Shown piece by piece: positions 3,435-62,239 of a DNA stretch of 64,000 nt; position 1 is the stretch's first letter; each line of letters begins with the position of its first letter. Source of the DNA: Flaccisagitta enflata (taxonomy: Eukaryota); assembly GCA_965153355.1 (NCBI GenBank), contig OZ231126.1, positions 42,842,001-42,906,000 of the forward strand, given 5' to 3'. A program made the translations under genes and the position numbers. The notes below the pieces were generated by a model that was given only the letters and a program-made list of their open reading frames with translations, was not told the origin of the DNA and searched no databases.

Positions 3435-4412
3435 TTTCTTTTTCCCCATGTCTCAGCCCGGCCTCTCTCTCACACACACCCATAAACTCTCATCTTCTGC
3501 AAATCTCATTCTAATTGAGCTCCAAGCCGCGATCTGCCTGAACAAATGTTTGTCGCCTTGTTTACTCTCGACGATCAACTTTCTCATGAGATTTCTCCTT
3601 TGCCCCCTTGACTCCTTTGCCCCCTTGCCTCCTTTGCCTCCATTGCCTCCTTTGCCGCCTTTGGCTCCATTGCCCCCTATCCTTCTTTCATTGCTTTCAG
3701 GCCTGTATATAGTTGCATATTGCCCGGGGGGGGGGGGAGGGGAATAAAGTGAAAGGATTTGGAAATGGGGAAGGAAATTAAAGGGTGAAAAATGAAAGGT
3801 TGTGCAACTATATACAGCCCTGATTGCTTCCTTGTTGTTTTTGTTTCTCTGTTTCTCTGTTTCTCTGTTTCCCTGTTTCCCTGTTTCCCTGTTTCCCTGT
3901 TTCTCTGTCTCTTTGTTTGTTTGTTTGTTTGTTTGTTTGTTTGTTTGTTTGTTTGTTTGTTTGTTTGTTTTTTGTTTGTTTGTTTCTTGCTTTCATTTCT
4001 TTTCATTTGTTTGTTTGCTTCATTCTTTCCCTCTTTCCCTCTATCTTTCTTTTTAGTTGCAGACACGCTACTCTATGAGAGGCTACGTCCACCCGTAGGT
4101 CCATCGGTCTGTTGGTCCGTCAGTCAGTCAGTCCTTCGGTCGAAGGTCATCAAGTTGAAAAGTGGGAAAAATTTTAGTGTCTGTTTGAGTATGGGGGGTG
4201 GGTTGGGGTGTGGATGGGGGTTGGATGCCCCTGCCCGCCCGGCCGCAACGATATTGTGACCCCGCGTCACTAGTTTTCCTTATTTCTATTTTTCTTACCA
4301 ATAAGATTTGCTTTCTCGTTAGCCCGCTCTCTTTCCCACTCCATTTTCTACCAGAACTTTGTTACTTGTTTAGGTCTTCATCATCCGTTTTCTTTAGGAT
4401 TCCTTATGTTAT

Positions 4413-4623
4413 TAGTCGCGTGCACGCGACTCTACAACCCGCTTTGTCCGTCGGTCGGTCGGTTGGTCGGTCGGTTGGTCGGTTGGTCGGTCGGTCACAC
4501 TTTACTTCTTTTTATGATTTTATTTCTTGGACCTCACTGCTCCTGCCCACGTTGCCTAGTGACCTCAAATATGGCCCCTGCCCACCCGCACGCGACTTCG
4601 GTAGCCGTGTATCCGGCCTTGTT
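4413..4623 (+). mobile_element. Family A DINE-1/HINE-like non-autonomous rolling-circle element
   Basis: 5' palindrome AGTCGCGTGCACGCGACT, (GGTC)n, subterminal inverted copy CACGCGACT, 3' hairpin GCCG-TGTATC-CGGC then CTTGTT. T-rich flanks, no TSD. Confidence 0.8.
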
Positions 4624-26402: not shown

Positions 26403-26472
26403 TAGTCGTAGCCGTCTATTTGGGTTACCGTTCGTATTGAAGGATACGGCAGTAACAGCCGTATCTCCGACA

Positions 26473-29202
26473 TTACGTGGGCCCGCGATCGTCTTCCCTC
26501 TTCTTCTTCTCCTCTTCTTCCCGTTTCTTCCTCCTCTGATCGTCTGCCGCTTGGCGTTTCATCATTGCCCGTTGGACCCGTTCCGGCGCTTTTCCCAACG
26601 TAGCGATCTCTTCTCCCACTGAGCGTATCCGGGGGAATGACTCCTCCAGCCTCTCCGAGCTCGATGGGCCCGTCGTTCCGATCTCTTCCAGATTCATCCC
26701 TGTAGGTGGTGCCATATCGACATTTAAGTCCAACCTTGCATCGTTCATGCCTTCTCCTCTGATGTACATCATCGGTACTTCTTGCCCTGTTGCTTTAACT
26801 GCCGCCAAATGTTTCTCCAAGCTTTCCTCGTTCTTCAAAAGAACGTTCCTAGTCGAGTTATAAATTTCCGTTGCCTTGAACACTAAGTTCTTTCCGAATT
26901 TCCTTACATAGAGGCAACAGTCTCCCGCCAGCTTTTCTGCCTCCCCCTCTCTAACCGTGACTGTTTTTGACCAGTTATTCATCTTTTCCTGCATCTCATT
27001 CATCTTTTCTTGCATTTCCTGTTCCGTTTGTTTGAACCATTCCTCCTTCGTCGTGTAGTAGCTCTCAAGTTCCTCCTGCCTCGTCTTCATGTCCTGCTCA
27101 AACTTTTCTTTCTCTTCCTTCCATCTCTTCTCCCTTTCTTCTGCTTCTCTTTCCCATTGTTCCCTTTCTTCTCTCATTTCTTTTCTCTTCCTTTCTAACC
27201 TTTCCATTGCCGCCGTTGCTTCCGCATTTTCTTCCTCCTCTATTGGCGCCGACGCCCCCGTCTCCTGTCGCGTATCGAATCGCGTCCCTTTCGTTAAATC
27301 TGTGAGTAATTGAACCACTTTGTTCTGAAATTCTGTTTGGCTCCTAAGTCTTTCCTCCTCAATGCTCTCTATTCCTTTATTCTTTGCCATTCTTGTACCT
27401 ACTACTGTTCCGTCGCTTTCAGTCCTTTCGGTGAATCCTCCTACTCCCTCGCGTACGTCTTGCCTATTGTCGCCGTCGTTCCTCCTCGAATTCTGCGGGA
27501 ACAATCTTCTCGACGCCGTCGTTGACGTCGTCGTCGATGCCCACGCCCTTCTTGCTTCCGCGTCGCCTTCGTCCCGTACTGGGGGGTTCTCCACTGGTGC
27601 TTGTCGATTTGCCCCTTTTTCCTGACCCACTCTCACTCTTCTTTCCGCTTGTGCCTTCGCCCTCGCATCCAATTCCCCATTCTTCACTATCTGCTCATCC
27701 CTTTCTTCCAACATCTTCATTCTCATCGCTCTCTTCGCCGCCGCGTAGAGTGGGCATCTCCCTTCCGTTGGGCCGTGGTCTGCCTGCATTTCCGCCTCTT
27801 CACAGTTCACGCAATGAGGTTCGTTTGCACAGTTTCCGCGATTATGGCCGACGCCGCTACAGCGCCTACACCGGAAGTCCTGCCTACATCCTCTCGCTGT
27901 TCCCCGGTGTTCTAGTGACAAGCAACGGTTGCACTCTGGGTCGCATTGGATGTCCGGGCTCGTCGCCATGGAGACGTTGAATTTGTCGTGGAGGAAGTAT
28001 CCTTTCGTCAGCAGCTTCTTCACCGGCTCCCCCTTCTTAAAGTACACCCTCAACTTCAAATTATCTCTTGCCCGGTCCGGATTTTCCACCTCTCCCCTCG
28101 GTGCCATCACTTCTATCCTCACTGCCTTCTCTCCACATTCTTTCACCAAATCCTCCTGTAACCCTTTTTCTAGCGCGCTTCCCGCTTGGAACGGATTTCC
28201 TGTTGGACGTCCCATCCCCAACTTCCTTAGTGGGTATCCGTCGAAGATGATGGTTGGCCCCGTTGGTTTCCTCTCTCCCCCTCCCCCTCCTCCTCCTCCC
28301 CCACCGCTTCCTATTGGCACTCCTCCCCCTAGGCGTGATTCCATTTCCACTCTCCAATCTTTCGTTTGTGGGATCCACTTCCCTTCTCTTAGGATGTTGG
28401 TGTCCTTGTTGTCGTACACTGCCATAACTATCTCCCCTTCTCTGTTAACGTCGAATTCTGGCGGTTGCGTCAGCCCCTCCGGCATCATCTCCCTCATCCT
28501 CGCCTCCTTCTCCGCGTATATCATCCCCGCGAACTCTTCATCCCCATACGCGCCAATTACCTTTACGACGATCCTTTTCTTCGCCGCGGTTGACGATCCG
28601 ACGCCCACGCCCCCCGTCGCGCCCGCCGTTGCCACCGTCGATGCCGATGCTGCCGCCGCCGGGATCCCGGGCGGCGCCGATGCTGCCGTTGGCGCTGCTG
28701 CGGTTGTCCTCGATGACGATTTCCTCGCCGTCTCCTTCTTCTTCTTTGCTGCTTCCACAGTGTCCATCGCTTCGACGTCTTCCACTTCTTTCGCCCAGCT
28801 CCCGTGCGGTTCGACGTTGTTCGCCGCAATAGCTGCGGCGCCTCTCGCTTCGTCGGGCGTTTCCCCTCTGATGACACTGTTTGCCCCGTCGTCGTCGTCC
28901 GAGCTCGTGTCTTCGTATTCCGAATCGTGTGACTCGTCCGAGACGACGGCGTCCACTCCGTCGTCTTCCTCTTCTTCGCTTTGGCTTCCCCGCGCTTCTT
29001 TGAGGTTCTTCTCCATTTCCGGTTTCCCCGGCGTCTTTTTCTCGTCTTTTCGTTTCGCTTCTCTTCTATCTCTTATTAATTCTTTTTCCTGGGGTGTGAG
29101 TCGCAACTTGCAATTAGCGGAGTTTTTCTTTGAATGATTCTCCTCTCCTGTTTCTTCAGTCTGATCCGAGCTCCTCTTCCTTCTCTCTATCCCTTCATCC
29201 AT
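26473..29202 (-). CDS. LINE ORF1 (gag-like nucleic-acid-binding protein, three zinc knuckles, long coiled-coil C-terminal extension), 909 aa
   Basis: Uninterrupted ORF. Knuckles CNRCLSLEHRGTARGC, CRRCSGVGHNRGNC and CVNCEEAEMQADHGPTEGRC, the triple arrangement typical of Jockey/I/R1-group ORF1. E/K/R-rich heptad-like region after the knuckles. Lies directly upstream of the RT ORF. Confidence 0.92.
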   Translation of the reverse strand: MDEGIERRKRSSDQTEETGEENHSKKNSANCKLRLTPQEKELIRDRREAKRKDEKKTPGKPEMEKNLKEARGSQSEEEEDDGVDAVVSDESHDSEYEDTSSDDDDGANSVIRGETPDEARGAAAIAANNVEPHGSWAKEVEDVEAMDTVEAAKKKKETARKSSSRTTAAAPTAASAPPGIPAAAASASTVATAGATGGVGVGSSTAAKKRIVVKVIGAYGDEEFAGMIYAEKEARMREMMPEGLTQPPEFDVNREGEIVMAVYDNKDTNILREGKWIPQTKDWRVEMESRLGGGVPIGSGGGGGGGGGGERKPTGPTIIFDGYPLRKLGMGRPTGNPFQAGSALEKGLQEDLVKECGEKAVRIEVMAPRGEVENPDRARDNLKLRVYFKKGEPVKKLLTKGYFLHDKFNVSMATSPDIQCDPECNRCLSLEHRGTARGCRQDFRCRRCSGVGHNRGNCANEPHCVNCEEAEMQADHGPTEGRCPLYAAAKRAMRMKMLEERDEQIVKNGELDARAKAQAERRVRVGQEKGANRQAPVENPPVRDEGDAEARRAWASTTTSTTASRRLFPQNSRRNDGDNRQDVREGVGGFTERTESDGTVVGTRMAKNKGIESIEEERLRSQTEFQNKVVQLLTDLTKGTRFDTRQETGASAPIEEEENAEATAAMERLERKRKEMREEREQWEREAEEREKRWKEEKEKFEQDMKTRQEELESYYTTKEEWFKQTEQEMQEKMNEMQEKMNNWSKTVTVREGEAEKLAGDCCLYVRKFGKNLVFKATEIYNSTRNVLLKNEESLEKHLAAVKATGQEVPMMYIRGEGMNDARLDLNVDMAPPTGMNLEEIGTTGPSSSERLEESFPRIRSVGEEIATLGKAPERVQRAMMKRQAADDQRRKKREEEEKKKREDDRGPT

Positions 29203-33453: not shown

Positions 33454-34161
33454 CAGTGGGATCTCGGTTTAAGGGATTTCTAAGGACTGACTATTCTTGT
33501 CTCTTAACTCCAAAATCCCTTAAATTGAATTTATGTTCTATTAAGGATTTTTAGTCGCGTGCTACGCGACTCTACACCCGGCTTTGTCGGTCCATCCGTT
33601 GGTCCGTTGGTCCGTTGGTCCGTTGGTCCATCCGTCGGTCCGCCCGTTGGTCTGTCACACTTTACTTTTTTGGGGTTTTTGCGGTTTTTGGCCTTACTGC
33701 TCCTGCCCAAATGATCTGGTGACCTCGAATTCTGGCCCCTTCCCACCCGCACGCGACTGGGGTAGCCGTGTATCCGGCCTTGTTATATTAGTTACTAAAT
33801 TCATAGTGTACCCACATCCTTTTGCTTTAAGTATGTTGAACAATAATGATTGATTTAGTTCATGGCAGGATATTCATGGCACAGGAAATATTTCATTTTT
33901 TTCTAACAAATTTTTTCTTAAAAATTATCTCAAAATACCATTTTTTTGTCAAAATTCATCAAATTTACCTAAAATTTCCCCTGACATAAGGGATATTTTC
34001 AAAAACTTGTCTCTTAAATCCAAATATCCCTTAATTAGAGGTTCCTAAAATAGAGGTTTTTTAACATTGGAAAAGCCTGAAAATTTTTGGGACCAGACAG
34101 TGATGTCTATTAAATGCGGATATCCCTTAAATAGAGGTGCCACTAAGGTGGGATTCCACTG
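33454..34161. mobile_element. MITE, TA TSD (pogo/Tc1-like), inserted in an 8-bp tandem array and itself carrying a HINE-like insert
   Basis: TA|CAGTGGGATC...GGATTCCACTG|TA. The (TAATTATG)n array resumes on both sides. Confidence 0.8.
33552..33784 (+). mobile_element. Family A HINE-like element nested in a MITE
   Basis: TAGTCGCGTGCTACGCGACTCTAC...GGTAGCCGTGTATCCGGCCTTGTT. Confidence 0.8.
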
Positions 34162-37715: not shown

Positions 37716-37934
37716 AACAAGGCCGGATACACGGCTACCCCAGTCGCGTGCAGGTGGGCAGGGGCCATAATTAAGGTCACTCCATCATTTGGGCAGGAGC
37801 AGTGAGGCCAAAAACCGCAAAAAACAAAAAAAGTAAAGTGTGACGGACGGACGGACCGACGGACGGACCGACGGACGGACCGACGGACGGACGGACCGAC
37901 AAAGCGGGGTGTAGAGTCGCGTAGCACGCGACTA
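37716..37934 (-). mobile_element. Family A HINE-like element
   Basis: Near-identical to 12304-12507. Confidence 0.8.
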
Positions 37935-37982
37935 AAAAAACTACAGAGGGTAAGTATGAGAAAAAGAAGTGGTTTCCAAAAA

Positions 37983-49998: not shown

Positions 49999-50129
49999 AA
50001 CAAAAACAAAAACAAAAACAAAAAACAAGAGACATAAAACAAACAAAAGATTCAGAAATTACAGGTGCACCATTTGCAACGTGTCCGAGATAAACGAAAA
50101 TCCGCCTATAATGGTCATGAAACTCTCTG

Positions 50130-50354
<225 letters not shown>

Positions 50355-50469
50355 CTTTTTTTTGTCAACCACCTGACACATGAATTGAGTCCCAATGCCT
50401 TCCACGAGATCGGGAGTCGACGGAGAACAAGATGGCTTCCCAACCACACTTAAGTCCACGCTGTGAGAA

Positions 50470-50548
<79 letters not shown>

Positions 50549-51100
50549 CGGGGGGAGGGAGGAAGAACGAGGGAGGGATGAAAATATGTAGAATATTTCT
50601 TGCCAGACATAGACGAGTGTTTGTTGAGACGCCTCACAAAAGTCAGAGGAGAGGCTCCGGCAAGTTTCTTCATTTTCTGCCTCTTTAGTTATGACTCGGT
50701 TGAGAGCTCATATTTTCAATGTTGACTCTCTTCATAATCTTATTTTCCACGCGATGGCAGTGAAAAAATGTAACGGAGTTTGTTTATTATAACTTCTTTT
50801 TTTTTGCGTCAAATTCTTGAACGCGGAACGAATGTCTATTTGACTCAATCCTCAGGTCGGTCCGTTGGTCCGTCGCGTCGGTCTGCGATCGGTCGGTGAC
50901 TACTTCTTCCTTATAGCTCGCATCATTCTCTCTCGTCAGTGGTACCAATGGTATCAGCCTAGAACCCTAAGACCTTGACCCATCTCCAACCCCATCCCTA
51001 ACCCTAATCCCACCCCTAGTCCTAGATCATTACTCGCGTGAAAACACTTAGAAACGGAAATAACGATAGTACATAATACATACTGCCCATATATGGAAAT

Positions 51101-51395
51101 AAACGACAAACGACAAACGACAAACGACAAACGACAAACAACAAACGACAAACGACAAACGACAAACGACAAACGACAAACGACAAACGACAAACAACAA
51201 ACGACAAACGACAAACGACAAACGACAAACGACGAACAACAAACGACAAACGACAAACGACAAACGACAAACGACAAACGACAAACAACAAACGACAAAC
51301 GACAAACGACAAACGACAAACGACAAACGACAAACGACAAACGACAAACAACAAACGACAAACGACAAACGACAAACGACAAACGACAAACGACG
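51101..51395. repeat. (AAACGAC)n 7-bp tandem repeat
   Basis: Direct reading. Confidence 0.95.
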
Positions 51396-51959
51396 AACAA
51401 AATCGCTCGACTGCGTTCGTTATTTGCTTTATGTATTTGCTTTAACGAAATGTTTGAACAAGAGGAAACTATTTTCAAAAATGTGAATTGAAATGTTATA
51501 ACGGAGCCTTTGACAATTGTTCAACGAACTGAAAGAAATATCAAACAAACATTTTACTTAACTTTTATCAGATGTTCAAAGGCCAACACCTCTAAGTCGC
51601 GTGCGGGACATAAATAACTTAAGATGACAATAATTGACTTAAGATGACCAGAAATGACTTAAAATAACTAATAAAGACTTAAAATGACGTTATTGACTGA
51701 ATTGACCTGATTGACTAAAGTGATTTAATATGACTTAAAATGACTAAAATGACTTAGCATTTGAAAAAAGCTGTGAGCCCAAAAAAGCTTAAAAACACCG
51801 AAAAAGTAAAAAGGGGACCAACCAACCAACGAACCAACCGACCGACCAACAAAGCGGGGTGTAGAGTCGCGTAGCACGCGTAGCACGCAACTAAAAAGAT
51901 GGAAGCAAATTGCTTCAAGCAATGCGTGATGCAATTAACATCCGCTTTTTCAGTCAACT

Positions 51960-52260
51960 CTTTTCCATTGTTAATCTGATACCATATGTTCAGCTGTGCT
52001 CAGATTTTACCAATTCTATCCCAACAGGTTTAGACCAACTCCCTACAGCAGAGTCAGAACAACGGGAGTACCGCCCGAAGATACGCCAGAGAGACGAGGT
52101 GATACGACCGAGCGGAAGGGTACGACTCGATAACACCGGAGCAATCGATTACCGAAGGGCGAACGAACCAACCAGCCAGGACAACCAGGAAGACGCGCGA
52201 CTAAGGCAACCTAGACACAACCTGAGGGATGCCACTGGACGATTCAAAAAGAAGCAATAA
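51960..52260 (+). pseudogene. Possible C-terminal remnant of retrotransposon pol/integrase
   Basis: SIVNLIPYV resembles the RPI.KL.PL end of BEL/Pao integrases, followed by a basic tail (RQPRHNLR...RFKKKQ*). No catalytic motifs remain, so this is weak. Confidence 0.4.
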
Positions 52261-53670
52261 GACCGTCCTTGTTTATGTGTCCGTCATATGTCTCTTGTCC
52301 TGTATGCCTCTATCTGTTACCATTGTTATCAGCTCACGTTTGAATTGTGTTATCCTTTACATCCGTCACCATTCAGATCGTATCTAATCGCTTCTGCCAT
52401 TGAATAACTGCCTATCTTGACCCACTGTGCAGGGGACTGCATACCTCGGGTTTCTGAGAATATTTCTATCCAACTAACATCGCGTTGCCAATGTTTAGGC
52501 TGGTGTAGCCTTTTACCATTGAGTTGATCTGTCACTGCATGAAAATTTCATGTTAACCTTCAATTTAGGATAGCCTATAGAATACAAGGCGCTGCTAGCC
52601 AAAGGAAAATTTGATGTCTCTCATCATTAGGAAAATCATTCCCACCATCATGAATTTATTCTCATCCTTACATTTATTCGCACAATAAAACAGTAACTCG
52701 CGCCTTCCATTTCATTCGTTTCCATGACCATAGCTGATAGTGTATAGTATTGTAACATACTAACTAGCATGCCGGCGTAGTAACTGTAGATTATCCCTAC
52801 TAATACATTACCACCTCCCATTACTGCAAGGAAACACGTACCGAAACATGGATCACTACCCTTCTTGGTCGGAGGAATGTGAGATTGACGCCGGGACAAT
52901 GCAAACTAAATTAAATCTCAGAACTCAACAGGAGGTAACATTGTGGTTGACTTGAATTGTACCAAATAGAAGAAATCGTGGATAATCCTTGAATGTGAGT
53001 ATGCATGGGAAGCAATGTTCATGGGAAGCAGTGTTTGAAGTATGATCATGAGGAATTCCACTTCAGAGTTTAATCAGGTACTGGCCATTGTTTGTTAAGA
53101 TTCGTTTGCTTATTTATTTGGTGACAATGCCATTTCATGCCTAATGAAAACCATCTCTGTTATAGGAACTTGCCTGGTCATGGAAGTTCGTTTGTTACGA
53201 TGGAGGCGCCTGTGAACCTGTGAGCTTCACAGCAACTCTGGGATTTGTTAGTAGAATAGCTCGGAGACGGGAAATCAACACAAGAAAGACGACAGTTTTG
53301 TTAACCATCCTGTCCAACAACACCATGCGTTGATTATGAGTTGTTAGTAGATAGAACTGGGATGAATTCCAATGAACAATGAGGACGTTAATAGACCCTT
53401 GAAATGCAGAAGTGAAATTCGATGTATGACGTAGTTCCGTGAAACTTGAGTTCAGTTTGTGATTTAAAAAGCTGAGTGGTAATACAAGGTAACGCATTTA
53501 CAAAAAAAAAAGTTTCCTTTTATAACAGACCTATGCCGAATTCTGTCTGACGCTTTTGTTTGAGATGATGTGTATAAGTGAGGTTCATCTGACAAAGATC
53601 CCGCTCTTGAGTTAATAAGTCATTTGTTACTTTATTGCCAGTTATTTCGCCGTTCCGTTACACTTATCAC

Positions 53671-53699
53671 CTGATTACTCCCCTCCACTTTCCCCTTAG
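53671..53699 (+). promoter_or_regulatory. Candidate splice acceptor upstream of the exonuclease ORF
   Basis: CTGAT branch-like motif, pyrimidine tract CTCCCCTCCACTTTCCCCT, then TAG|G. No ATG between it and 53880. Confidence 0.5.
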
Positions 53700-53879
53700 G
53701 TGTGCTCAGGAAAAATTTGTTTCTCCTTATCGCGGAGTTTGCTAACTAGCATCGAAAAAGTGTATAGTGTGTCAGTCAAAGTGACTTTCTATCGCGATTT
53801 CCAAAGTTACACGCATTCCCTGGGGTAGGGTTAGTTGCGTGGGCCGGGAGGCCATCAGTCAGTGCCGAGCAGCCCCACC

Positions 53880-56800
53880 ATGTCAATCCCAATTTACTCC
53901 AAAACCGGAGGGGTTCCGGAAGCTGGTGCCACATGCACAGCTGGAGTACAGATAGAGGTCGCCGAGGATTTACTCGTGCAAAACCCCAAATTACCCCCAA
54001 TCATTCCCCCAGACACCACAAAATTACCGTGGGGTGGGAAAAAGTACAAACACACTCCACAAAACGACAAAAAACTAACCTCAATCCACGAGGCTCAGCA
54101 AGAAGCCAAATATGACAAACGGATCTGTATGGACAAAGACAAACAACAATACATCAGGGAGTTTAGAGCTGCTAATGCGTTTGGGGGGGTATTGTTGAAG
54201 GAAACTGATAAGTGTCCAAACGCGTTCATCCCAGTTGGTGTTGATACAGAAAATAACGACAGCACACTCCAACTCTCTGTCCACATCCCAAATCATTTCG
54301 GCAAAAACAGACACTTCGAGAGACATGCACTCGTCCAAACCAATACAGCATGTGAGGACAAAGTGCACATCTTCAGCACGGGTGAAACACCACTAAAAAT
54401 TAGGGAATTTTTGCTTAGGCCCAAAAACTTTTATGTCAATGTCAAGGCCAAACAAGACATAGGCGCTATGGCCAAAACCTTTGAATTTGATGCCATCGAA
54501 AAAGAACGTATAGCCTATGTTGAGTTGAAAGATCTTTTCACCTTCGCCATGTGTCTCGCCCAAGACCCGTCTGTCGCACGGCAGTTCTTGGAGAGCAATC
54601 CCGACGTTCACAAGAGTTACGGACGATTTGAAACGGAATTAGGTGAACCTGGCCTAAAACAGGTCGCGCGTTTGGCTTGGCCAGACAAATGTCTCCTAAA
54701 GGTAAGTTTCTTGAGAGACAACACAAACAACTTTGACCTGAAAAAGGGAGAGTTGACACAACTTCAACTCGATTACGGCGTCAATGACGCCAAAGTACCA
54801 CAGGAAGCGGGAAAGGAAATTTCCGAGAGGATGATGGGAATACCGCTGCACTGGTTCATGCGGTTTTATGGTCCGTCTGACAGCAAAACCAACGGGTATC
54901 GGTTTAACCACTTGCTACGTGTGTGTGATGTCCTTGAGGGCGCTAGAGACGCCAACGAACTTGAGCCTATGGAGGAGCGCATTCTTGAGGGCATTGAGGA
55001 AAAATTAAGTAATGGTTTGGCCCAAAAATGCCTCGACAGTCTCAATATTTTGCGCCATTATTGGGCAATGCGCAAAACAACAAACGGCATTTACAAAGCG
55101 AGTAGAGAAGGCACCAATATGGCCGTGGTTACGGGCCCCATTCATCCCCGCACAAAAGCCCTTATGGAAGCTGCAAATAGGCCTTATGTCAGCCGTGTGA
55201 GACGCGGAACGCCGATGGTTTTGGCAATTTCCGCGACGGACGCACCGACGGACCAAACGTGTTCCACAGAAGAGCCCTCAGATGGCAAAAAGCGTTCGTG
55301 GAAACACGATAAGGATAACGTCGACATTTCAGGTGAGGAAAGTGATGATTGTATCATTGAAACTGACCTTACCAAAGATGATAACGTCCCAGAGGAAATG
55401 CAGACGGACGAACACGGCCAAACAGACACTCTTTCTGAGATTCCTGACGCCAATCAGTCAAACGTCACAATAACCATTTCTTCCACCCCAACTCAATCAG
55501 GTCTTTCGGTAACCGAGGTAACCTCTAGCATAGTTGCGGGAGCGGAGTTGCCGACTCTTGCTGACCCGGATAGAAGTAGCGAGATAGTCTTAGGCCATAG
55601 TACTTCGGAGACCGGAGCCATTCCAAAAACAGGTACTGTGGTAAAAATCGTTGAGCCAATCAGGGGTGGGGTTGAAAATTTTGTAAATGACGAGTATCTT
55701 GAGATGATTGAAGTTGGAAATCCTAAAGGTAATGGGCAATCTTTGAAAAAAGTCTTAAGTTGCGTAAGTAATATGAACGTGGTGCAACAAAAATTGGTTA
55801 CCATCTCGCAAAGCGGTTGCTTAAATGATGGAGGAAGCAGCAAACCAAAACGTTACAGTCTCATTGATCTCGCCAAAAATATGGACGGTATCAAATCAGT
55901 TGCAAAAAGACGTCTTTCTAGATCTTTCATGGGTCCAACTATTAGCCGTAACAACGTTAACTCTTCCTCTTCCTCCTCTCAATCTCTTTCTACAGACGTC
56001 ACGCGCGAACCGACTAAAATTTGTGCCAATGATCAGTCCGTTTGTCACACTGCCCAAAGTGTCGGTCCGTCTGTCAGTCAAGATGCACGTCAAAAGATCA
56101 GTTGCGCTGACAACCAAAACCTCAGCAGAATTCCAACCAACAGCAGTCAGTCAGTCAACCAACAAGCCAATCAGTCACTCAATCGGCAAAATTCCAACCA
56201 ACCGATAAACCAGAGAATTGGCCAAAAAAGAGCCCCACCCGCACAGCGACCTCGTCTAGGTCCAGTTGCGCCAAAACGAGGTAAAGTAGAAAGTGAGAGA
56301 GAGAGACTTGAGAGAGAGAACCATGAAAAAGTCATGAACGGCGTTGAATGGGTTTCTAGGACGAGGATGACCGTCCAAGCAGCAGTAAACTCATTTTTTG
56401 TGTCTGATGATGCGTTGTTTTTGGAAAATTGTGTAAAATTTGCGCGTGAGTATAGGCTCAAGCTTGACATCAGCAAAAGCTCCAAAAATGATTTCATTAG
56501 ACAGTTAGTGAGGAGTTTGGGCGGAGAGATACAGCAGAGATTCGTCAAAAAAGTCTTAGACGAAAATGTGTTTGAGTCTGGACCATTACATGCCGTTTTG
56601 AAAATGGCTTGGAACGACATGGTCCCGGCGGAAGTCCTATTGGACTCTTTCCTGCGAAAAGTCGACGAGAATGATTTGATCAAGGCCATCAAAATGTTCG
56701 AGAGGCACGAATTGACGCGCGTGCTCAGAAAACTGGCAGTGAAATTCGGGAATAGCGCCGTCCTCGTGCAGTGGTTGAAAGAGTTCAGCTTTTTCGGTAA

Positions 56801-57773
56801 TGTGAGGGTTGAACAAGTGGAGAGATACTTTACGTTTGCCAGAGTCAAGTATTTCTTACAAAAGTTGATCAAGGAAGGAAAGAGCCTTGTCCCGGATGAA
56901 GCCCGGTTTCTTTTCTTTGATTTTTTTCTCCACCCATTCCTCAAAGCCTATCACCGTAAGGAAGTAGAGCCACGCGATTTTTATATCGCCATTAAGGGAA
57001 GAATCGGAGACGACGAGGCCCTGATGGATTCTTGCATCAGGCAGGTAATGACCAAGTCCGTCTGGTTAGGCTCGTACTTGGAGGCTAAGGAAGGTAGACC
57101 AGCGACTGCAGAAGCAATGGGTGGTCCCCCCGGGTGCGCTCAACCCTACAACCGCCCCCTTCACGCATTGGCGCCAGGGAAGGAATTGATGATGACATGT
57201 AAAAAGGATGTATCTAACTTAAAGGATTATTTGGATGACGCCCTTTACTACGCCATGGACACTCATGATACGAATCAGTACGACGGCACGTTAGTCCTTG
57301 ATTTCGTCTCATTCAGGTTTAGGAAAAAGGTTTTCCATTATTTGCCGGCAGTGTACCCGCAACTTGCGAGATCGATCGGCAAGGCTCTTGCCAAATACGA
57401 CAGGGTGTGCGTGATGTTTTATCCCGACCGTCACGGTAAGCATTTTGAGCAATTGTTTGGCGATGTACCGTCAAGAGTAGTTGACGTTAGGTCCATCGCA
57501 GAAAGTATCGGATGTGAGCAGACGCTGAACGGCATCTCGAATGACGTCACCGGCGGTGACCTTTGTCGGCGTGGAGCGAATTTCTCCGCATCGGTTCAAC
57601 CATCAGTGGAGGCAGTGGTGCATAGAGTCTATAGAGTCAGTCTGTTTTTTGAATTTGCATGGAAGAATTTCCGACTGGGGTTGAAGGAAATGGCAAGAGA
57701 ATTGAGGCGTGAAGCGGATGAAGCCCGCGAAGGACGCGATGGCGCTAGTAGTAGCCGCATGATGCAAGAGTAG
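53880..57773 (+). CDS. Intronless ~1297 aa protein: N-terminal DEDDy 3'-5' exonuclease (WRN/EXD2/mut-7-like fold), disordered linker, helical region, second degenerate exonuclease-like domain
   Basis: ExoI VGVDTE, LQLS, ExoII VNVKAKQD, YVELKDL, GLKQVA, ExoIII LTQLQLDYGVNDA. C-terminal YAMDTH...VVDVRSIA...TLNGISNDVTGGDLC echoes the same motif order. First ATG at 53880 in CCACCATG context (track ORF starts at TTG 53835). Confidence 0.85.
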   Translation: MSIPIYSKTGGVPEAGATCTAGVQIEVAEDLLVQNPKLPPIIPPDTTKLPWGGKKYKHTPQNDKKLTSIHEAQQEAKYDKRICMDKDKQQYIREFRAANAFGGVLLKETDKCPNAFIPVGVDTENNDSTLQLSVHIPNHFGKNRHFERHALVQTNTACEDKVHIFSTGETPLKIREFLLRPKNFYVNVKAKQDIGAMAKTFEFDAIEKERIAYVELKDLFTFAMCLAQDPSVARQFLESNPDVHKSYGRFETELGEPGLKQVARLAWPDKCLLKVSFLRDNTNNFDLKKGELTQLQLDYGVNDAKVPQEAGKEISERMMGIPLHWFMRFYGPSDSKTNGYRFNHLLRVCDVLEGARDANELEPMEERILEGIEEKLSNGLAQKCLDSLNILRHYWAMRKTTNGIYKASREGTNMAVVTGPIHPRTKALMEAANRPYVSRVRRGTPMVLAISATDAPTDQTCSTEEPSDGKKRSWKHDKDNVDISGEESDDCIIETDLTKDDNVPEEMQTDEHGQTDTLSEIPDANQSNVTITISSTPTQSGLSVTEVTSSIVAGAELPTLADPDRSSEIVLGHSTSETGAIPKTGTVVKIVEPIRGGVENFVNDEYLEMIEVGNPKGNGQSLKKVLSCVSNMNVVQQKLVTISQSGCLNDGGSSKPKRYSLIDLAKNMDGIKSVAKRRLSRSFMGPTISRNNVNSSSSSSQSLSTDVTREPTKICANDQSVCHTAQSVGPSVSQDARQKISCADNQNLSRIPTNSSQSVNQQANQSLNRQNSNQPINQRIGQKRAPPAQRPRLGPVAPKRGKVESERERLERENHEKVMNGVEWVSRTRMTVQAAVNSFFVSDDALFLENCVKFAREYRLKLDISKSSKNDFIRQLVRSLGGEIQQRFVKKVLDENVFESGPLHAVLKMAWNDMVPAEVLLDSFLRKVDENDLIKAIKMFERHELTRVLRKLAVKFGNSAVLVQWLKEFSFFGNVRVEQVERYFTFARVKYFLQKLIKEGKSLVPDEARFLFFDFFLHPFLKAYHRKEVEPRDFYIAIKGRIGDDEALMDSCIRQVMTKSVWLGSYLEAKEGRPATAEAMGGPPGCAQPYNRPLHALAPGKELMMTCKKDVSNLKDYLDDALYYAMDTHDTNQYDGTLVLDFVSFRFRKKVFHYLPAVYPQLARSIGKALAKYDRVCVMFYPDRHGKHFEQLFGDVPSRVVDVRSIAESIGCEQTLNGISNDVTGGDLCRRGANFSASVQPSVEAVVHRVYRVSLFFEFAWKNFRLGLKEMARELRREADEAREGRDGASSSRMMQE

Positions 57774-59044
57774 TGAGGCGTCGAGACGGTCTTGCGGAGA
57801 GTCGACTTGAGTAGACGTCGCTTGAGGGGTGAAGACCGGTAGGAGCTCACGGCGTTGTTCCAGAGCGGCCTCGTTCGCGTTCTACCGCCGGAAACATAAC
57901 CTAGACTTTTGTCAGTGTGGATACGTCGTCGTAGTAATGAAGCTTTTATGTGAGGCGCGAAAGGTCGTCGATGTTCTTGTCTCTTTTCTTACGTCGTTTC
58001 ATCGATTACCGGTTTTGTTTTCTTACCGTTTCTATGTGGTTTTTTTTTCGTATTTAGTTATCATCATCGTTTCACGATTTGCATTTCCGATTCTTTTTCA
58101 TAACTCTTATTACGATCTGCCTATGATAGTCGCCGTGGCCGTTAGTAGCATCGTCATCGTCGTTGCTTAAAACACTTTTCTTTCTTTTTTTTATGCCGTG
58201 TATGTCGTTTTTTTTTCCGCGCGGATGCTGTATAGTCGTGTTCTTACTATATTGTTGTTGCTTACGCTACTTGCATTATTTGCGTTACTTACGTTTTTTT
58301 TTTTCGTTGACTTTTTTTCCCGCGGTAGTCGTTATCGTCATTATCGTCGCGCGTTTACGGTTCTCTCCTATTTAGTCAACTGCCGTAGTCGCCGTTGTTG
58401 TCTTCGTGACGATCGTGGTTGTTGCATGTGGTCAGTTGTTTTTTTTTCATTCGATCATTTACCGATGCAGGATGCAACATTTGGGTGGTCCCTGCGGTTT
58501 CGAGACCCAGGGCCGTCGTTCTATCACCCACAATCGAATCATCCTAGATACATACATGCGTACATGTTCTCTTTTCCGATATTTTTGCGTTCGCGCGCGA
58601 TGTCAGTTACCGCCAGAAATTCTTTTTTCTCGTATGATCATGTGTCCCGATGCAGATTTGGTTTCTTCTCCGATATATAAAAGCAACACGCGATATCCGT
58701 TGCCGTTGATAGTATTTTCTTTTTTTTCATGATCATGTGCATCATTACCTCGTCGTCGTCGCGGTTGGATTGTGTAGTAGTTTTTTATCTTTCCTGATTA
58801 TTTACCGTCGCCGTTGATTCCTTTTTTTTTCGCGTTTATGATTGTAACGGCTTCCCCTCATTTCCTTTTTTTCGCATATTGAGCGCTTATGCGCCATTAG
58901 ATTCGTCGTCGTTTTCTTTTCTTTTTCTCACCCACTAACTCGGTGGTTTCCGTAGTGGTGGTTGTTGTCGTTCGTTGACGTTGTGGTTGTTTTTTTTTAG
59001 TCTATTTCGACGCAGGATTTAGTCTGCGGACAGCCTATAGCGTC

Positions 59045-59053
59045 GAGGGGAAG
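59045..59053 (+). other. Polypurine tract
   Basis: GAGGGGAAG followed by TG-TGTTACA. Confidence 0.65.
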
Positions 59054-59055
59054 TG

Positions 59056-59595
59056 TGTTACAGGTAGAATATTGTGTGGAGGCGACAACGGATATCGGTA
59101 GATGGACGATGGCGCTATGATGGATCTAAGGACGATTAGAATCATGGATGAAGATTGAAGTTATATATGAGTTATATTTCGATTGCGTTTAAGTCGTATA
59201 TGAGTCTTGATCCATATTGTTATTGATATTTATATAAACGATCGATTCTTATACTATTGCTTGTGCGCATAACATTTGTTATATTTCTCTTTCTCCCTTT
59301 AGATATTAGATATATGCCTGAGGCTTTAATGATAGTGTTTTGGGTCGTCTATTGGAATCGTGGTACACTACTTGTTGCTTCTTGATTTCCAGAGCCATAA
59401 TACATATACATAGTGCCAGTTGTTGATGAATGCTTACGTGGAACTATCGGAGACACGTTGTGTAAAGACTTGATGAGATACTATCTGACTTTCATAGTCG
59501 TGTGATAACAAGCGTCAGTGGATGGACGCATACTGGCCTTTGCACTCACTCGATATGTCGACGCTCTGAAGGTAAGGGGAAAATATCCTCTTACA
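59056..59595 (+). repeat. Putative 3' LTR (540 bp)
   Basis: Starts TGTTACAGG two bases after the PPT and ends CCTCTTACA (reverse complement TGTAAGAGG, 7/9 match). Contains TATATAAA near 59231. No second copy in the window. Confidence 0.7.
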
Positions 59596-61232
59596 AGTGT
59601 GACCAACCAACCGACCGACGGACAAAGTGGGTTGTAGAGTCGCGTGCACGCGACTAAAAACGTGAATCGATGTCAGATGCTAATTTTCAAAAAAATGGGT
59701 CAGCTTTTTTATTCGTTTTTGGCCCCAACCTTAAGGAGACATGGTAATTTTTTTCTTCCTGATACATGATGTATAAAACTACATTCACTTTCTTCAAAGG
59801 GACTTTTTCTAGCTCAAAACGAGATCATAAAGACGTCATAAACATGGACTGTAATGCGCTCCTCAGATTGACTTTTTCAGAGAACCACGCTGAATGCGCT
59901 AGAACATGTCAGGCCATTTGACAGTAAAAGTCTAAAAATGATTGGTGCCGCCATGAGTGAAAGTAGTTACTGGACAGGGGAGATGACACACAAAAAATCA
60001 AGACGCCTGGAAACCTTTTCTTGTACTTTTCAAGACCAGTAATGGGCAGAAACTTATTTTGGTGGTATAGTTATTTCCTAGGTAGTAAGGCTGAGATTTT
60101 AGCCTTGAGGCCTCGACATGAGCCTTGAGGCTGGAATTTGTTTCATAGGGAATGGGCGGAGAAAAAAGACAAGAAGAATAAAAACAAATTCCCCATATGT
60201 GAGACAACATAGGACATCAGCCACTTCGGGGACGTTGCCCGAAAATGGAATGCTCTTCGGATTGAACACATTTATCCACTTGTGCACTGAATGATATCAA
60301 GGCAAAATTTGCTAAAAAAGCTTCAAAGGGAAAGCTAAGCTCAAGCTAAATACTCATTTGCATCCATAATCATCCGTTCACAAATATCGCAATTGCTGGT
60401 GGATTTTGCGAAAAGTCCTCACTCGAGGCTATATAACGCAGCTTCGTGGTTTCATCAAGCCTCTTACTCAATCTTTTCACTGACTTCATTACAATAAATC
60501 TTTCATCATTTTCTTTGTCTTTTCGTTAAAGCTTGCAAAGCACTACTTCTTTTCGATGTCGCCTCGGCTGTGTACATGATATTCATGCGCTTCTTAGATG
60601 GGATTGAGTAGTAATGTTGTCTAACTTTCATATGCAACGCTAGATTTCGCCTTTCGCTGGGATTCATTTTGTCACTTGCAGTATAAAGGGATAGCAAAAG
60701 CGGCGTAATGACATTGTTCCCTGTCTGTTTCAGTTAGTAGGTTAGTGAGAGAAAAGAAACTTATCAAAGATGGCGATATCGTGGGCGATTTTGTAGATAA
60801 ATGATTTCATTTTGAGATTACGTCAAACCATGTCAGGCAGAGTCGAGCAGAGACCGCAAAGTCGTAGTCAGGAATTCATACACAGGCAGAGGACAGCAGC
60901 CAGCCTGAGTCAGGCTGAGTCACGGAGTTCAGCAGAGTAAGGCAAAGTTAGGCAAAGTCTGCAAGTGTCAGGCAGGGTCAGGCAGAGTCAAGCAATAGTC
61001 AGAGGCAGAGTCTGTAAATGTCAGGCAGAGTCAGGCTGTCTAACGTATCTTATATCGATGCTTGCGTGGGAACGAAAGGATTATAAGACGGCCCAAGTGA
61101 AGGACGTGGGAGGAATGCCGATAGCCGATCTACGATGCTGCGTGGTTTATAAACGCCAAATGTAATCAATTTGGCGCTTTCTATACAGAGAGAGAGAGAG
61201 AGAGAGAGGCAGAGGCAGAGGCAGAGACGGAC

Positions 61233-61301
<69 letters not shown>

Positions 61302-62239
61302 GTCAGACAGACAGATAAATGGTTAGACGCAGAGAAACACAAGTACGCAGATACTGAATATGATAAATCAGTGTATAAACAGTGCGGAATTAGTGGGACT
61401 GAGAGCTGGGAGATGGAGCTAACTTGGATGAAATAGAACAAATACCGCGGGGTGACGATATTGTCATGGACGGACGGGCGTGGGTATCTAACTCACTTTC
61501 ACTCACACAGACACAAAAATGATCACAACCGCGGCATGGAAATTGTGCGGTTTTACACTTTTTATCTCAACTGGGACCCACAGATCGACCAACGGACCGA
61601 CAGACCAACGGGCGGACCGATGGAAAGACAGAGAGATAAAGCCTATGATAGAGCCACTGGTCCGCCACTAAAAAGTTGATGGACATGGAAACAAAACAAA
61701 ATGAAATAAACTAGCCTTTGTTTACATGTGTTTGTACTGTTTGTAACACGCAAGTTGATGAATATCATTTGCAAGAGGAAAAAAAATCAATATCTTTAGG
61801 CGCGTGCACGCGACTCTAAAAGTCACTATGCCTGTCGGACGATCTATCAGTTGGTCTAATGATCAGTCTGTAAGACCGTTGGTCCATTGGTCAGTCTGTC
61901 GGTCTGTAACACTTTTATTTTTATTTTATGGATAGTTTTTGCATTACTGCTTAGTCAGCCTTTTTTATCACTGCCCCTGCTCACTCGCACTTGACTTTGG
62001 TGGTCGTGTATCCGGCTTTGTTTTCATCAAAACAGAGGAGCCATAGAGGCCGGCCAGAATATAGGGTTCACGTGCAATGTTAGATCGATTTAGCTTCTTA
62101 CGATGTCTATGGTGTCTCTTTCATAACATACGGTTATTTTTCTATTGGCTAAGGTGGGATTATACTGTTCTTGTCTGCAACCGGATATCGGGTAAAGTAA
62201 GTCGTCAAAAGGAATGAGGTTTTTCACTGAGATGACCTA

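What the first reader, a model, noticed from the sequence alone, without database searches (positions are those of the whole stretch)
56330..57670. Second, apparently inactivated exonuclease-like domain with His/Cys substitutions after a helical region
Seen: YYAMDTH (ExoI-like, His where Glu is expected), VVDVRSIA, TLNGISNDVTGGDLCRR and PSVEAVVHRVYRV follow the same order as DEDDy motifs but lack the ExoIII Y-x3-D. A ~270 aa helical-looking stretch precedes them. Known: mut-7/Nibbler have a helical region before the exonuclease, and Maelstrom is a DEDD-derived fold rebuilt with His/Cys residues. Inference: an active plus pseudo-nuclease tandem, where the second module could be an RNA-binding or decoy domain, possibly with a new metal site.
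Basis: partly seen in the sequence, partly recalled or inferred. Interest (0 to 1): 0.7.

Follow-up and report, generated by a model that had tools for sequence, protein, structure and literature searches.

The report
Inactivated exonuclease module with Cys-His tetrad
The last 480 residues of a 1,312-residue eukaryotic protein form a helical-repeat domain followed by a 3'-5' exonuclease fold that has lost its catalytic acids and instead carries four almost invariant Cys/His residues, which defines an undescribed protein family that probably binds nucleic acid rather than cutting it.

Summary
Window 56330-57670 lies in one uninterrupted ORF (53835-57773, +; first ATG 53880; 1312 aa), and all quoted motifs are at the stated places.

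An AlphaFold2 model of the last 481 residues is confident (pLDDT 91.9, pTM 0.84). It shows 16 helices followed by an alpha/beta domain that superposes on WRN exonuclease, RNase D and Nibbler EXO (Z 18-19).

The DEDDy residues are gone:
- ExoI is D-T-H in this protein. Among homologues the Asp column is Asp in only 27 of 77.
- The ExoII acid is absent.
- ExoIII is H-x3-R.

The module defines a family of 131 cluster representatives. None of the 42 scanned has a Pfam hit, and none of the 10 looked up has a name.

Four residues are nearly invariant: C1101, H1110, C1244 and H1263. The full tetrad is present in 52 of 58 sequences.

Whether the four residues cluster in space could not be measured, so a Cys2His2 zinc site remains inference.

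The N-terminal domain keeps all five DEDDy residues in every long homologue, which supports an "active plus dead" tandem from sequence. Its fold was not modelled.

The helical domain is a HEAT-like solenoid. Its best match is the Nibbler NTD, but weakly (Z 7.3).

Verdict: a new variant of a known kind (pseudo-exonuclease).

The parts
53880..57773 (+). Single-exon ORF of the whole protein (frame open from 53835; first ATG 53880; stop included), 1312 aa as translated from 53835
   Evidence: Long homologues of 1091-1242 aa share the same domain order.
54135..54869 (+). N-terminal DEDDy-type 3'-5' exonuclease domain (about residues 101-345) with intact ExoI D137/E139, ExoII D208 and ExoIII Y314/D318
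   Evidence: The five residues are invariant or nearly so in 10 aligned long forms. In the Atlas, 25 of 30 hits belong to the PF01612 set at 0.92. PF01612 is sub-threshold in 2 of 7 long homologues. Nibbler ExoIII matches at E 0.25. The fold was not modelled.
55155..56324 (+). Low-complexity, poorly conserved linker (about residues 441-830)
   Evidence: S+T+N+Q+P+G fraction 0.45. The region is gappy and unconserved in alignment A2.
56346..57089 (+). All-helical HEAT-like solenoid domain (residues 838-1085, 16 helices, pI 9.1)
   Evidence: AF2 models (pLDDT 91). Only generic helical-repeat matches were found. The best of 48,161 chains is the Nibbler NTD 7jw3_C at Z 7.3. pI.
57135..57164 (+). 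Interdomain segment C1101-x8-H1110 (motif P-x-C-x2-P-x-N-x2-L-H), first half of the conserved Cys/His tetrad
   Evidence: Cys in 70 of 71 and His in 67 of 72 homologues. Model pLDDT is 96 for residues 271-280.
57141..57680 (+). Catalytically degenerate DEDD-fold (RNase D/WRN/Nibbler-like) domain, residues 1103-1282
   Evidence: VIA Z 19.2 to WRN exonuclease (178 aligned, rmsd 2.7, model 272-451), 18.6 to RNase D, 18.2 to Nibbler EXO and 16.3 to Exd1. Foldseek gives 22 matches at E<=1e-3, top Nibbler EXO.
57258..57266 (+). ExoI-like D1142-T-H1144 on the first long beta-strand (DxE replaced by DxH)
   Evidence: Asp in 27 of 77 and His in 54 of 78 homologues. Strand 307-316 of the model.
57564..57572 (+). 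C1244-R-R1246 in the G-G-x-x-C-R-R loop, third tetrad residue plus an invariant Arg
   Evidence: Cys in 106 of 107 and Arg1246 in 99 of 106 homologues. The coil 409-426 of the model has pLDDT 95-96.
57621..57635 (+). H1263-x3-R1267 in the last long helix, in place of ExoIII Y-x3-D; fourth tetrad residue
   Evidence: His in 103 of 104 homologues. The Asp-equivalent column is Arg in 46 of 104 and Asp in 8 of 104.
57681..57773 (+). Charged C-terminal tail (helix, then low confidence) and stop codon. It is longer and Arg/Ser/Asp-rich in most homologues.
   Evidence: pLDDT falls to 46-79 after model residue 450. Tails are visible.

Best explanation
Residues 832-1312 are a conserved two-domain module: a HEAT-like helical solenoid packed against a 3'-5' exonuclease (DEDDy, RNase D/WRN/Nibbler-type) fold that can no longer carry out two-metal catalysis.

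Shown:
- the fold;
- the loss of the ExoI Glu, the ExoII Asp and the ExoIII Tyr/Asp;
- the family-wide conservation of C1101, H1110, C1244, H1263 and R1246;
- the presence in the same polypeptide of an N-terminal domain with all five DEDDy residues.

Inferred:
(1) The four Cys/His residues bind one structural Zn2+. This would staple the linker that enters the domain (C1101, H1110) to the loop and helix that used to carry ExoIII (C1244, H1263), filling or reshaping the former active site.
(2) The dead domain and the basic helical domain act as a non-catalytic nucleic-acid-binding or adaptor unit, most likely for RNA 3' ends. EXD1 and Egalitarian use their exonuclease-like domains this way.
(3) This unit selects or holds substrates for the tethered N-terminal exonuclease across the roughly 400-residue flexible linker.
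For: Fold:
- AF2 model: pLDDT 91.9, pTM 0.84.
- Foldseek: 22 PDB matches at E<=1e-3, all listed ones DEDD exonucleases or Egalitarian.
- VIA: Z 19.2 WRN, 18.6 RNase D, 18.2 Nibbler EXO, 16.3 Exd1.
- The same ranking comes from a Foldseek-independent scan of 48,161 chains, where 67 reach Z>=8. DEDDy entries score 14-19 and DEDDh entries <=11.6.

Loss of catalytic residues and conservation:
- ExoI Asp 27 of 77.
- Glu position is His in 54 of 78.
- ExoII-equivalent columns are not conserved.
- ExoIII is His in 103 of 104, followed by Arg in 46 of 104.
- C1101 70 of 71, H1110 67 of 72, C1244 106 of 107, R1246 99 of 106.
- Full C-H-C-H in 52 of 58 sequences that cover all four columns.
- Four of the eight columns that are >=90% conserved in A1 are Cys or His, while mean column identity is 18%.

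Model confidence: the coil carrying C1244 and the segment carrying H1110 have pLDDT 95-96. A pTM of 0.84 for the two-domain model argues for a fixed packing of helical and EXO domains.

Tandem architecture:
- D137, E139, Y314 and D318 are invariant and D208 nearly so in 10 long forms.
- Long forms are spread over the family tree: 9 of the 42 sequences in it.

Precedent (passages read):
- EXD1 is an inactive DEDD domain that binds ssRNA (PMC4712191).
- Egalitarian's EXO domain binds RNA (10.1101/2025.08.03.668247).
- The Nibbler NTD is a HEAT-like RNA-binding scaffold before the EXO domain (PMC11347159).
- Maelstrom has an ECHC zinc finger in a DEDD-derived fold (PMC7968707).

The helical domain is basic, pI 9.1.
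Against: - No distance between the four Cys/His residues could be measured, because no model coordinates were accessible. Their spacing (C-x8-H ... C-x18-H) is unlike a classical zinc knuckle.
- Five of the six tetrad exceptions lack the H1110-column His. One natural variant (P0090) has the dead domain without the C1101/H1110 segment.
- RNA binding is by analogy only. The dead domain itself is not markedly basic (pI 7.9).
- The N-terminal domain's fold was not modelled. It does not reach Pfam's PF01612 threshold in any of the 11 long forms scanned: P0001, the 9 other members of A2, and P0090.
- Profile-profile comparison sees no similarity between the two exonuclease-like domains (probability 0.2).
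Confidence: 0.6

Rival explanations
1. The Cys/His residues form a rebuilt catalytic centre (a mononuclear Zn or His/Cys-based hydrolytic site). On this reading the second domain is still a nuclease or other hydrolase with a new mechanism, and the protein carries two different active sites.
For: - Conservation of C1244, H1263 and R1246 is at the level usual for catalytic residues.
- H1263 sits at or next to the position of the ExoIII general-base Tyr, and DEDDh enzymes use His there (established knowledge).
- H1144 (54 of 78) and D1142 (27 of 77) remain in many members.
- The Maelstrom (MAEL) domain, which lacks the DEDD motif, is described as an endoribonuclease in the passages read from PMC7968707. 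The same passages add that mutation assays point to ssRNA binding rather than catalysis.
Against: - Four protein ligands of Cys/His type are typical of structural rather than catalytic zinc sites (established knowledge).
- The acidic ExoII and ExoIII residues needed for two-metal chemistry are absent.
- H1144 and D1142 vary widely.
- No activity data exist.
Confidence: 0.12
2. The tetrad is not a metal site. On this reading the residues are conserved for packing, hydrogen bonding or a disulfide between the linker and the domain. The module works mainly as a protein-protein scaffold or an intramolecular regulator of the N-terminal exonuclease, not as a nucleic-acid binder.
For: - The long spacing between ligands, and the H1110 column being the least conserved of the four (67 of 72).
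- HEAT-like solenoids are common protein-binding scaffolds. The matches include PP2A-A, retromer VPS35 and CLASP TOG.
- EXD1 pairs its inactive nuclease core with a separate Lsm domain that binds TDRD12, so the protein acts as an adaptor within a complex (PMC4712191, passages).
Against: - Two Cys plus two His, all above 93% conserved in a family with 18% mean column identity, is the classical signature of a Zn site.
- An invariant Arg sits two residues after C1244, and the helical domain is basic. Both fit phosphate-backbone contacts.
Confidence: 0.2
3. The ORF is a decaying or transposon-derived relic, and the degenerate second domain is simply drifting sequence without function.
For: - The window is repeat-rich, with a LINE at 23601-29202 and dispersed repeats.
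- No homologue carries a name.
Against: - A 3.9-kb open frame.
- 131 diverged relatives with position-specific conservation.
- Confident folds for both C-terminal domains.
- The same architecture recurs in relatives only 16-23% identical.
- tblastn finds no second copy in the window.
Confidence: 0.05

Closest known systems
Nibbler / MUT-7 / EXD3 (HEAT-like NTD followed by a DEDDy EXO domain)
   Same: - Same order of a helical-repeat domain and an RNase D-type EXO fold.
- Nibbler EXO is the top Foldseek hit (7jw2_A, E 9.3e-5) and scores Z 18.1-18.2.
- The Nibbler NTD is the best of 48,161 chains for the helical domain (7jw3_C, Z 7.3, 159 aligned).
   Different: - The NTD match is weak and tied with generic solenoids.
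- Nibbler and MUT-7 are active DEDDy enzymes (PMC11347159, passages), whereas the catalytic residues are lost here.
- No MUT7-C domain is present.
- There is no detectable sequence similarity to the C-terminal module.
- This protein has an extra N-terminal exonuclease domain.
EXD1 (inactive DEDD-family domain, RNA adaptor of the PIWI-EXD1-TDRD12 complex)
   Same: A DEDDy-type fold without catalytic residues (Z 16.0-16.3). It is the best documented case of such a domain acting as an ssRNA binder (PMC4712191, passages).
   Different: - EXD1 has an Lsm domain and a C-terminal dimerisation hook.
- A conserved Cys/His tetrad did not come up in the passages read, which were found with the terms 'inactive', 'homodimer', 'catalytic residues' and 'Lsm'. 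'zinc' and 'cysteine' were not searched in that paper.
- EXD1 has no helical NTD and no fused active exonuclease.
Egalitarian ExoHD
   Same: An RNase D-like EXO fold used for RNA recognition independently of catalysis (Z 13.6; Foldseek E 5e-4; papers read as passages).
   Different: - Egl keeps all DEDDy residues.
- Its flanking domains are LOTUS-like EDs and a small helical XAD/EHD after the EXO domain, not a solenoid before it.
Maelstrom (MAEL domain)
   Same: A DEDD-derived fold in which the acidic catalytic set was replaced by a conserved four-residue Cys/His-containing zinc site (ECHC; PMC7968707, passages). It is the closest analogy for an 'active-site switch'.
   Different: - MAEL derives from the DEDDh (DnaQ-H) branch, while this domain groups with DEDDy enzymes.
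- The tetrad here is C-H-C-H, with two ligands contributed by the linker before the domain.
- There is no HMG box.
- Maelstrom was not among the listed structural matches.
WRN exonuclease / RNase D / Rrp6 (Pfam PF01612)
   Same: Best overall structural matches for the second domain (Z 19.2, 18.6 and 16.6). These are also the probable family of the N-terminal domain.
   Different: - These are active enzymes with DEDDy intact.
- The second domain here fails every catalytic motif and gets no PF01612 match.

Membership tests
DEDDy 3'-5' exonucleases (PF01612; RNase D/WRN/Nibbler) - second domain | RNase H-like DEDD exonuclease fold | tested here: met
   Z 19.2 (WRN, 178 aligned, rmsd 2.7), 18.6 (RNase D) and 18.2 (Nibbler EXO). 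Foldseek E 9.3e-5.
DEDDy 3'-5' exonucleases - second domain | ExoI D-x-E | tested here: not met
   D1142-T-H1144. Among homologues Asp is present in 27 of 77, and the Glu position is His in 54 of 78.
DEDDy 3'-5' exonucleases - second domain | ExoII Asp | tested here: not met
   The columns after strand 360-363 (P1197/D1198) have no conserved acid: W 45 of 102 at one column, and E 21 plus D 16 of 102 at the next. The residue equivalence comes from motif order, not from a superposition.
DEDDy 3'-5' exonucleases - second domain | ExoIII Y-x3-D | tested here: not met
   H1263-x3-R1267. His in 103 of 104; the Asp column is Arg in 46 and Asp in 8 of 104.
DEDDy 3'-5' exonucleases - second domain | Match to the Pfam PF01612 model above its gathering score | tested here: not met
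   No PF01612 match on the C-terminal domain of P0001 or of 42 homologues at E<=0.01.
DEDDy 3'-5' exonucleases - N-terminal domain of the same protein | All five DEDDy residues in canonical order | tested here: met
   D137, E139, Y314 and D318 are invariant and D208 is >=90% conserved in 10 aligned long forms, 7 of them non-redundant homologues.
DEDDy 3'-5' exonucleases - N-terminal domain | DEDD fold / PF01612 match | tested here: inconclusive
   - PF01612 is sub-threshold in 2 of 7 long homologues (E 0.017 and 0.041, cut-off 23.6 bits).
- In the Atlas, 25 of 30 hits are in the PF01612 set at 0.92.
- Nibbler ExoIII matches at E 0.25.
Nibbler/MUT-7 family | HEAT-like NTD directly before the EXO domain | tested here: inconclusive
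   The helical domain's best hit of 48,161 chains is the Nibbler NTD 7jw3_C, but at Z 7.3, within 1 of unrelated solenoids. It does not appear in the Foldseek-based list.
Nibbler/MUT-7 family | Active DEDDy site; MUT7-C domain in most members | tested here: not met
   The catalytic residues are lost. No MUT7-C or other Pfam family is present, and only about 30 residues follow the domain.
EXD1-like inactive exonuclease adaptors | DEDD fold lacking catalytic residues | tested here: met
   Z 16.0-16.3 to Exd1.
EXD1-like inactive exonuclease adaptors | N-terminal Lsm domain and C-terminal dimerisation hook; homodimer | not testable with these tools
   No Lsm family appears in Pfam scans.
Maelstrom (MAEL) | DEDDh-derived fold with an ECHC zinc tetrad | tested here: inconclusive
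   - Maelstrom is not among the listed matches.
- DEDDh entries score Z <= 11.6 against 14-19 for DEDDy.
- The tetrad here is C-H-C-H.
- The positions could not be compared residue by residue.
Structural Cys2His2 zinc site (generic) | Four conserved Cys/His ligands | tested here: met
   70 of 71, 67 of 72, 106 of 107 and 103 of 104. All four are present in 52 of 58 sequences.
Structural Cys2His2 zinc site (generic) | The four side chains converge within coordination distance; metal present | not testable with these tools
The complex predictor with Zn never ran.

The most novel reading that the evidence does not exclude
This would be an ancient, so far unnamed eukaryotic protein family. In it, an active RNase D-type exonuclease is permanently tethered to a Nibbler-like NTD+EXO module. 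The module's active site has been rebuilt into a Cys2His2 zinc site, with two ligands reaching in from the interdomain linker. That would be a second, independent 'Maelstrom-type' active-site switch, this time in the DEDDy branch. It would give a built-in RNA 3'-end reader that chooses the substrates of its own exonuclease.
Probability: 0.35. Interest if true: 0.7.

Novelty: new variant of a known kind. Interest (0 to 1): 0.55.

Why it matters
Dead exonuclease folds reused as RNA binders are a recurring theme in germline and RNA-localisation biology (EXD1, Egalitarian, Exuperantia, Maelstrom). Each known case stands alone or pairs with other domain types.

Here the dead domain:
- sits in the same chain as an apparently live exonuclease;
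- keeps a Nibbler-like helical partner;
- carries a Cys/His tetrad that may be a zinc site in the DEDDy branch. The papers found in the searches describe none there.

The family has over a hundred diverged representatives. None of the 42 scanned has a Pfam model, none of the 10 looked up has a name, and sequence search finds no solved relative. It is therefore a clean target for defining a new domain family, and for testing how pseudo-nucleases guide active ones. Near-identical DNA occurs in runs labelled marine metagenome.

Tried and rejected
**Sequence searches that found nothing**
- Word-index homology searches with the whole protein, the N-terminal 405 residues and alignment A2 all found nothing.
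- PDB sequence searches:
  - with P0001: 0 hits;
  - with A1: 2 irrelevant hits at E 0.33 and 1.2;
  - with A2: a Nibbler ExoIII stretch at E 0.25 and five unrelated chains at E 0.048 to 2.5, the best being hypothetical protein TT1426.
- Pfam gave no family at its threshold on P0001 and none on 42 homologues.

**Comparisons and structure searches**
- hhalign of the N-terminal against the C-terminal exonuclease-like profile: probability 0.2. A duplication origin is therefore not supported by sequence.
- The ESM Atlas on the second domain gave only a lead: a WRN-like cluster at rank 4, score 0.88.
- BFVD gave only viral PolA-type and giant-virus exonucleases.

**Genome and contig searches**
- No whole genome is held for this window.
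With the single protein in metagenome contigs it found no relative.

**Expression**
- No RNA holder is listed. The one RNA run of the same study gave 0 reads on 52000-60000 from about 6% of the run. This is no test of expression.

It was never queued and was finally declared unavailable. No docking or zinc placement was obtained.
- Distances within the tetrad could not be computed, because models are not exposed as files.
- One script used a trimmed alignment and printed shifted columns before failing. Its numbers were discarded and recomputed.

**Readings rejected**
- That the flanking repeats at 51829 and 59602 are terminal repeats of a mobile element carrying the gene was rejected. The same roughly 60-nt unit is scattered at ten or more other places in the window.

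**Earlier findings and literature**
- Earlier findings of this scan returned nothing by place, sequence or words.
- Literature searches for a described DEDDy pseudo-exonuclease with a zinc site listed only Maelstrom-related and unrelated papers.

Full report
**Gene and setting**

The flagged region lies inside one uninterrupted reading frame, 53835-57773 on the + strand, 1312 codons. The first in-frame ATG is at 53880.

The window looks eukaryotic:
- Only six ORFs of 250 aa or more occur in 64 kb.
- There is a LINE with endonuclease and reverse-transcriptase domains.
- Long microsatellites are present.
- A short repeat is scattered through the window.

No genome is held for this window.

The His of YYAMDTH is at 57264-57266. 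Below, residue numbers are those of P0001 and model numbers are residue minus 831.

**A real family, not a chance pattern**

Pfam finds nothing at its threshold on the protein. PDB sequence search finds nothing, and the word-index searches find nothing.

The exhaustive HMMER search with the last 481 residues finds 131 cluster representatives at E<=1e-3, 65 at <=1e-10 and 16 at <=1e-30.
- Four short fragments are 74-88% identical. The rest are about 19-40% identical.
- None of the 42 I scanned has any Pfam family at E<=0.01.
- The ten I looked up come only from unnamed ENA contigs of 0.6-5.9 kb.
- Six representatives of 1091-1242 aa show the same full architecture as this protein.

**Fold of the last 481 residues**

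I aligned the query with 49 of the 131 hits. I chose them by E-value and took those of 730 residues or fewer; the long forms and short fragments were left out (alignment A1).

AlphaFold2 on this alignment gives pLDDT 91.9 and pTM 0.84. The model has helices over residues 2-254, then a beta-alpha-beta-beta-beta-alpha-beta-alpha-beta-alpha pattern ending in a long helix (286-474).

Structural matches for the alpha/beta domain:
- Foldseek against the PDB gives 22 matches at E<=1e-3. The Aedes Nibbler EXO domain is first (E 9.3e-5), followed by RRP6, RNase D, Egalitarian, NrnC and WRN.
- VIA-align gives Z 19.2 to WRN exonuclease (178 residues, rmsd 2.7, model 272-451), 18.6 to RNase D, 18.2 to Drosophila Nibbler EXO and 16.3 to Exd1. 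Of 990 chains aligned, 291 reach Z>=8.
- A scan of 48,161 representative chains that does not depend on Foldseek gives the same order, with 67 chains at Z>=8. DEDDy-type entries score 14-19. DEDDh entries (PARN, CAF1/Pop2, ISG20, the epsilon subunit) score 9.7-11.6.

The fold is there, and it belongs to the RNase D/WRN/Nibbler branch.

**The catalytic residues are gone and a Cys/His tetrad is conserved**

I aligned all 131 hits to the A1 profile and counted only sequences that cover each column.

| Position | Residue in this protein | Count among homologues |
|---|---|---|
| ExoI Asp | D1142 | Asp in 27 of 77 |
| ExoI Glu | H1144 | His in 54 of 78 (otherwise R, K, Y, Q) |
| ExoII Asp | P1197/D1198 | no conserved acid |
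| ExoIII Tyr | H1263 | His in 103 of 104 |
| ExoIII Asp | R1267 | Arg in 46 and Asp in 8 of 104 |

In contrast:
- C1244 (the Cys of GGDLC) is Cys in 106 of 107.
- R1246 is Arg in 99 of 106.
- P1256 is conserved in 103 of 104.
They lie in the motif P-x-C-x2-P-x-N-x2-L-H, in the linker just before the domain.

Of the 58 sequences (query included) that cover all four columns, 52 have C-H-C-H. Five of the six exceptions are the most distant members and differ at the H1110 column. One differs at C1101.

Four of the eight columns conserved at 90% or more in A1 are Cys or His, against a mean column identity of 18%. The segments carrying them are predicted with pLDDT 95-96 although they are coil.

This is the signature of a structural Cys2His2 metal site that ties the incoming linker to the former ExoIII region. 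I could not test the geometry. Model coordinates are not exposed, and the complex predictor, to which I had added a Zn ion, never ran. Residue-level equivalence to the DEDDy positions rests on motif order and secondary structure, because the fold tools print only ranges.

**The helical domain**

I modelled it alone, using 44 of the 131 hits (alignment A3; pLDDT 91.1). It has 16 helices.
- Foldseek finds nothing at E<=1e-3, only TPR, ARM, PUF and designed repeats at TM about 0.2.
- Against 48,161 chains, none reaches Z 8. The first is the Aedes Nibbler N-terminal domain (7jw3_C, Z 7.3, rmsd 4.5, 159 aligned), followed within one Z unit by pre-ribosomal HEAT proteins and other solenoids.
- The Foldseek-based second look lists only generic repeats.

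By the tool's own calibration this is not significant. It is nevertheless striking that the best match is the domain that precedes the EXO domain in the protein whose EXO domain is also a top match.

I read it as a HEAT-like solenoid. A Nibbler-like NTD+EXO arrangement is plausible but not shown. The domain is basic, pI 9.1. The Nibbler NTD is described as a HEAT-like scaffold with basic RNA-binding patches (PMC11347159, passages).

**The N-terminal domain and the tandem**

In an alignment of this protein with nine long forms (six distinct homologues plus three near-duplicates), D137 and E139 (G-x-D-T-E), Y314 and D318 (Y-x3-D-A) are invariant. D208 is conserved at 90% or more.

Supporting leads:
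- In the Atlas, 25 of 30 hits belong to the PF01612 set at 0.92.
- PF01612 matches nearly its full length, but below threshold, in 2 of 7 long homologues (E 0.017 and 0.041). It matches in 1 of 10 members of A2.
- There is a Nibbler ExoIII match at E 0.25.

"Active" is therefore an inference from intact motifs.

Profile-profile comparison shows no similarity between the two exonuclease-like domains.

I built a FastTree of the 42 sequences with at least 330 aligned residues; 90 shorter ones were dropped. The tree was midpoint-rooted and supports were not inspected. The nine forms with N-terminal-domain sequence are spread over all major branches. This suggests the fusion is ancestral and that many short entries are fragments or isoforms.

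**Mechanism**

Shown: a confident two-domain module with a dead DEDDy fold, a conserved Cys/His tetrad plus Arg, and a probable live exonuclease in the same chain, separated by a low-complexity linker of about 400 residues.

Inferred, by analogy with EXD1 (an inactive DEDD core that binds ssRNA; PMC4712191, passages), Egalitarian (an EXO domain used for RNA recognition) and Maelstrom (an ECHC zinc finger in a DEDD-derived fold; PMC7968707, passages):
- The module is a zinc-stabilised, non-catalytic nucleic-acid reader or adaptor.
- It presents substrates to the N-terminal exonuclease.

Rivals are a rebuilt catalytic site, a purely protein-binding scaffold, and a functionless relic. They are weighed in their own sections.

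**Other checks**

- DNA runs of a coded organism hold the locus. Runs labelled marine metagenome hold parts of it at 95-99% identity.
- No other copy of the gene lies in the window.
- Literature searches listed no description of a DEDDy pseudo-exonuclease with a zinc site. These two searches cover only the held library.

**Verdict**

This is a new variant of a known kind, the pseudo-exonuclease module, in an unnamed and unmodelled family. The zinc site and the RNA-reader role are still to be tested.

Noticed in passing
window 53615-53671 and 56196-56504: A 124-aa ENA protein (P0032, about 86% identical) matches the window in two pieces. Its residues 1-19 match 53615-53671, which is upstream of the ORF and in another frame. 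Its residues 22-124 match 56196-56504. The relative's contig therefore joins the upstream region directly to the start of the C-terminal module and skips about 2.5 kb (the N-terminal exonuclease and the linker). No GT..AG is visible at the window's junction, and the DNA runs show no such joint. It could be an isoform, a paralogue or a misassembly.
   Followed up: partly
protein P0090 (565 aa), compared with P0001: This is a natural 'compact' relative. It has the N-terminal DEDDy domain followed almost directly by the dead domain from its first strand onward. It lacks the linker, the helical domain and the C1101/H1110 segment, but keeps the C-x-R and H motifs.
   Followed up: partly
window 23601-29202 (- strand): A LINE-type retroelement. 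A 933-aa ORF carries endonuclease (Exo_endo_phos_2, E 5.5e-17) and reverse transcriptase (RVT_1, E 7e-25) domains. It is preceded on the same strand by a 909-aa ORF with no clear family.
   Followed up: no
window 59595-59663, 51815-51880, and about ten other places (e.g. 4408-4480, 33548-33621, 37878-37938): A dispersed repeat of about 60 nt, ending in a GC-rich palindrome. The summed contig depth over 59476-59742 is about 2.2 million in run X1, against 100-300 nearby. It is therefore an extremely abundant element of this genome.
   Followed up: partly
window 54870-55154 (residues about 346-440): The segment after the N-terminal exonuclease domain is conserved among long homologues (for example L361 and R424 are invariant) and is probably helical. 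Its nature was not examined, for instance whether it is HRDC-like.
   Followed up: no
C-termini of homologues (e.g. P0002, P0010, P0027): Most relatives end in Arg/Ser/Asp/Glu-rich tails (RS/RD-like), as in splicing-related proteins. The tail of this protein is short and only mildly charged.
   Followed up: no
window 50075-50625, 51031-51464, 60819-61046, 61156-61348: Long microsatellites and short tandem arrays flank the gene: (GA)n, a 14-nt array, a 10-nt array and (GACA)n.
   Followed up: no
window 53680-53700: A pyrimidine-rich tract ending in TTAG|G lies 180 nt upstream of the first ATG. It looks like a 3' splice acceptor, so the 5' UTR may be spliced.
   Followed up: no
window 18842-20122 (- strand): A 426-aa ORF without any Pfam match.
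   Followed up: no
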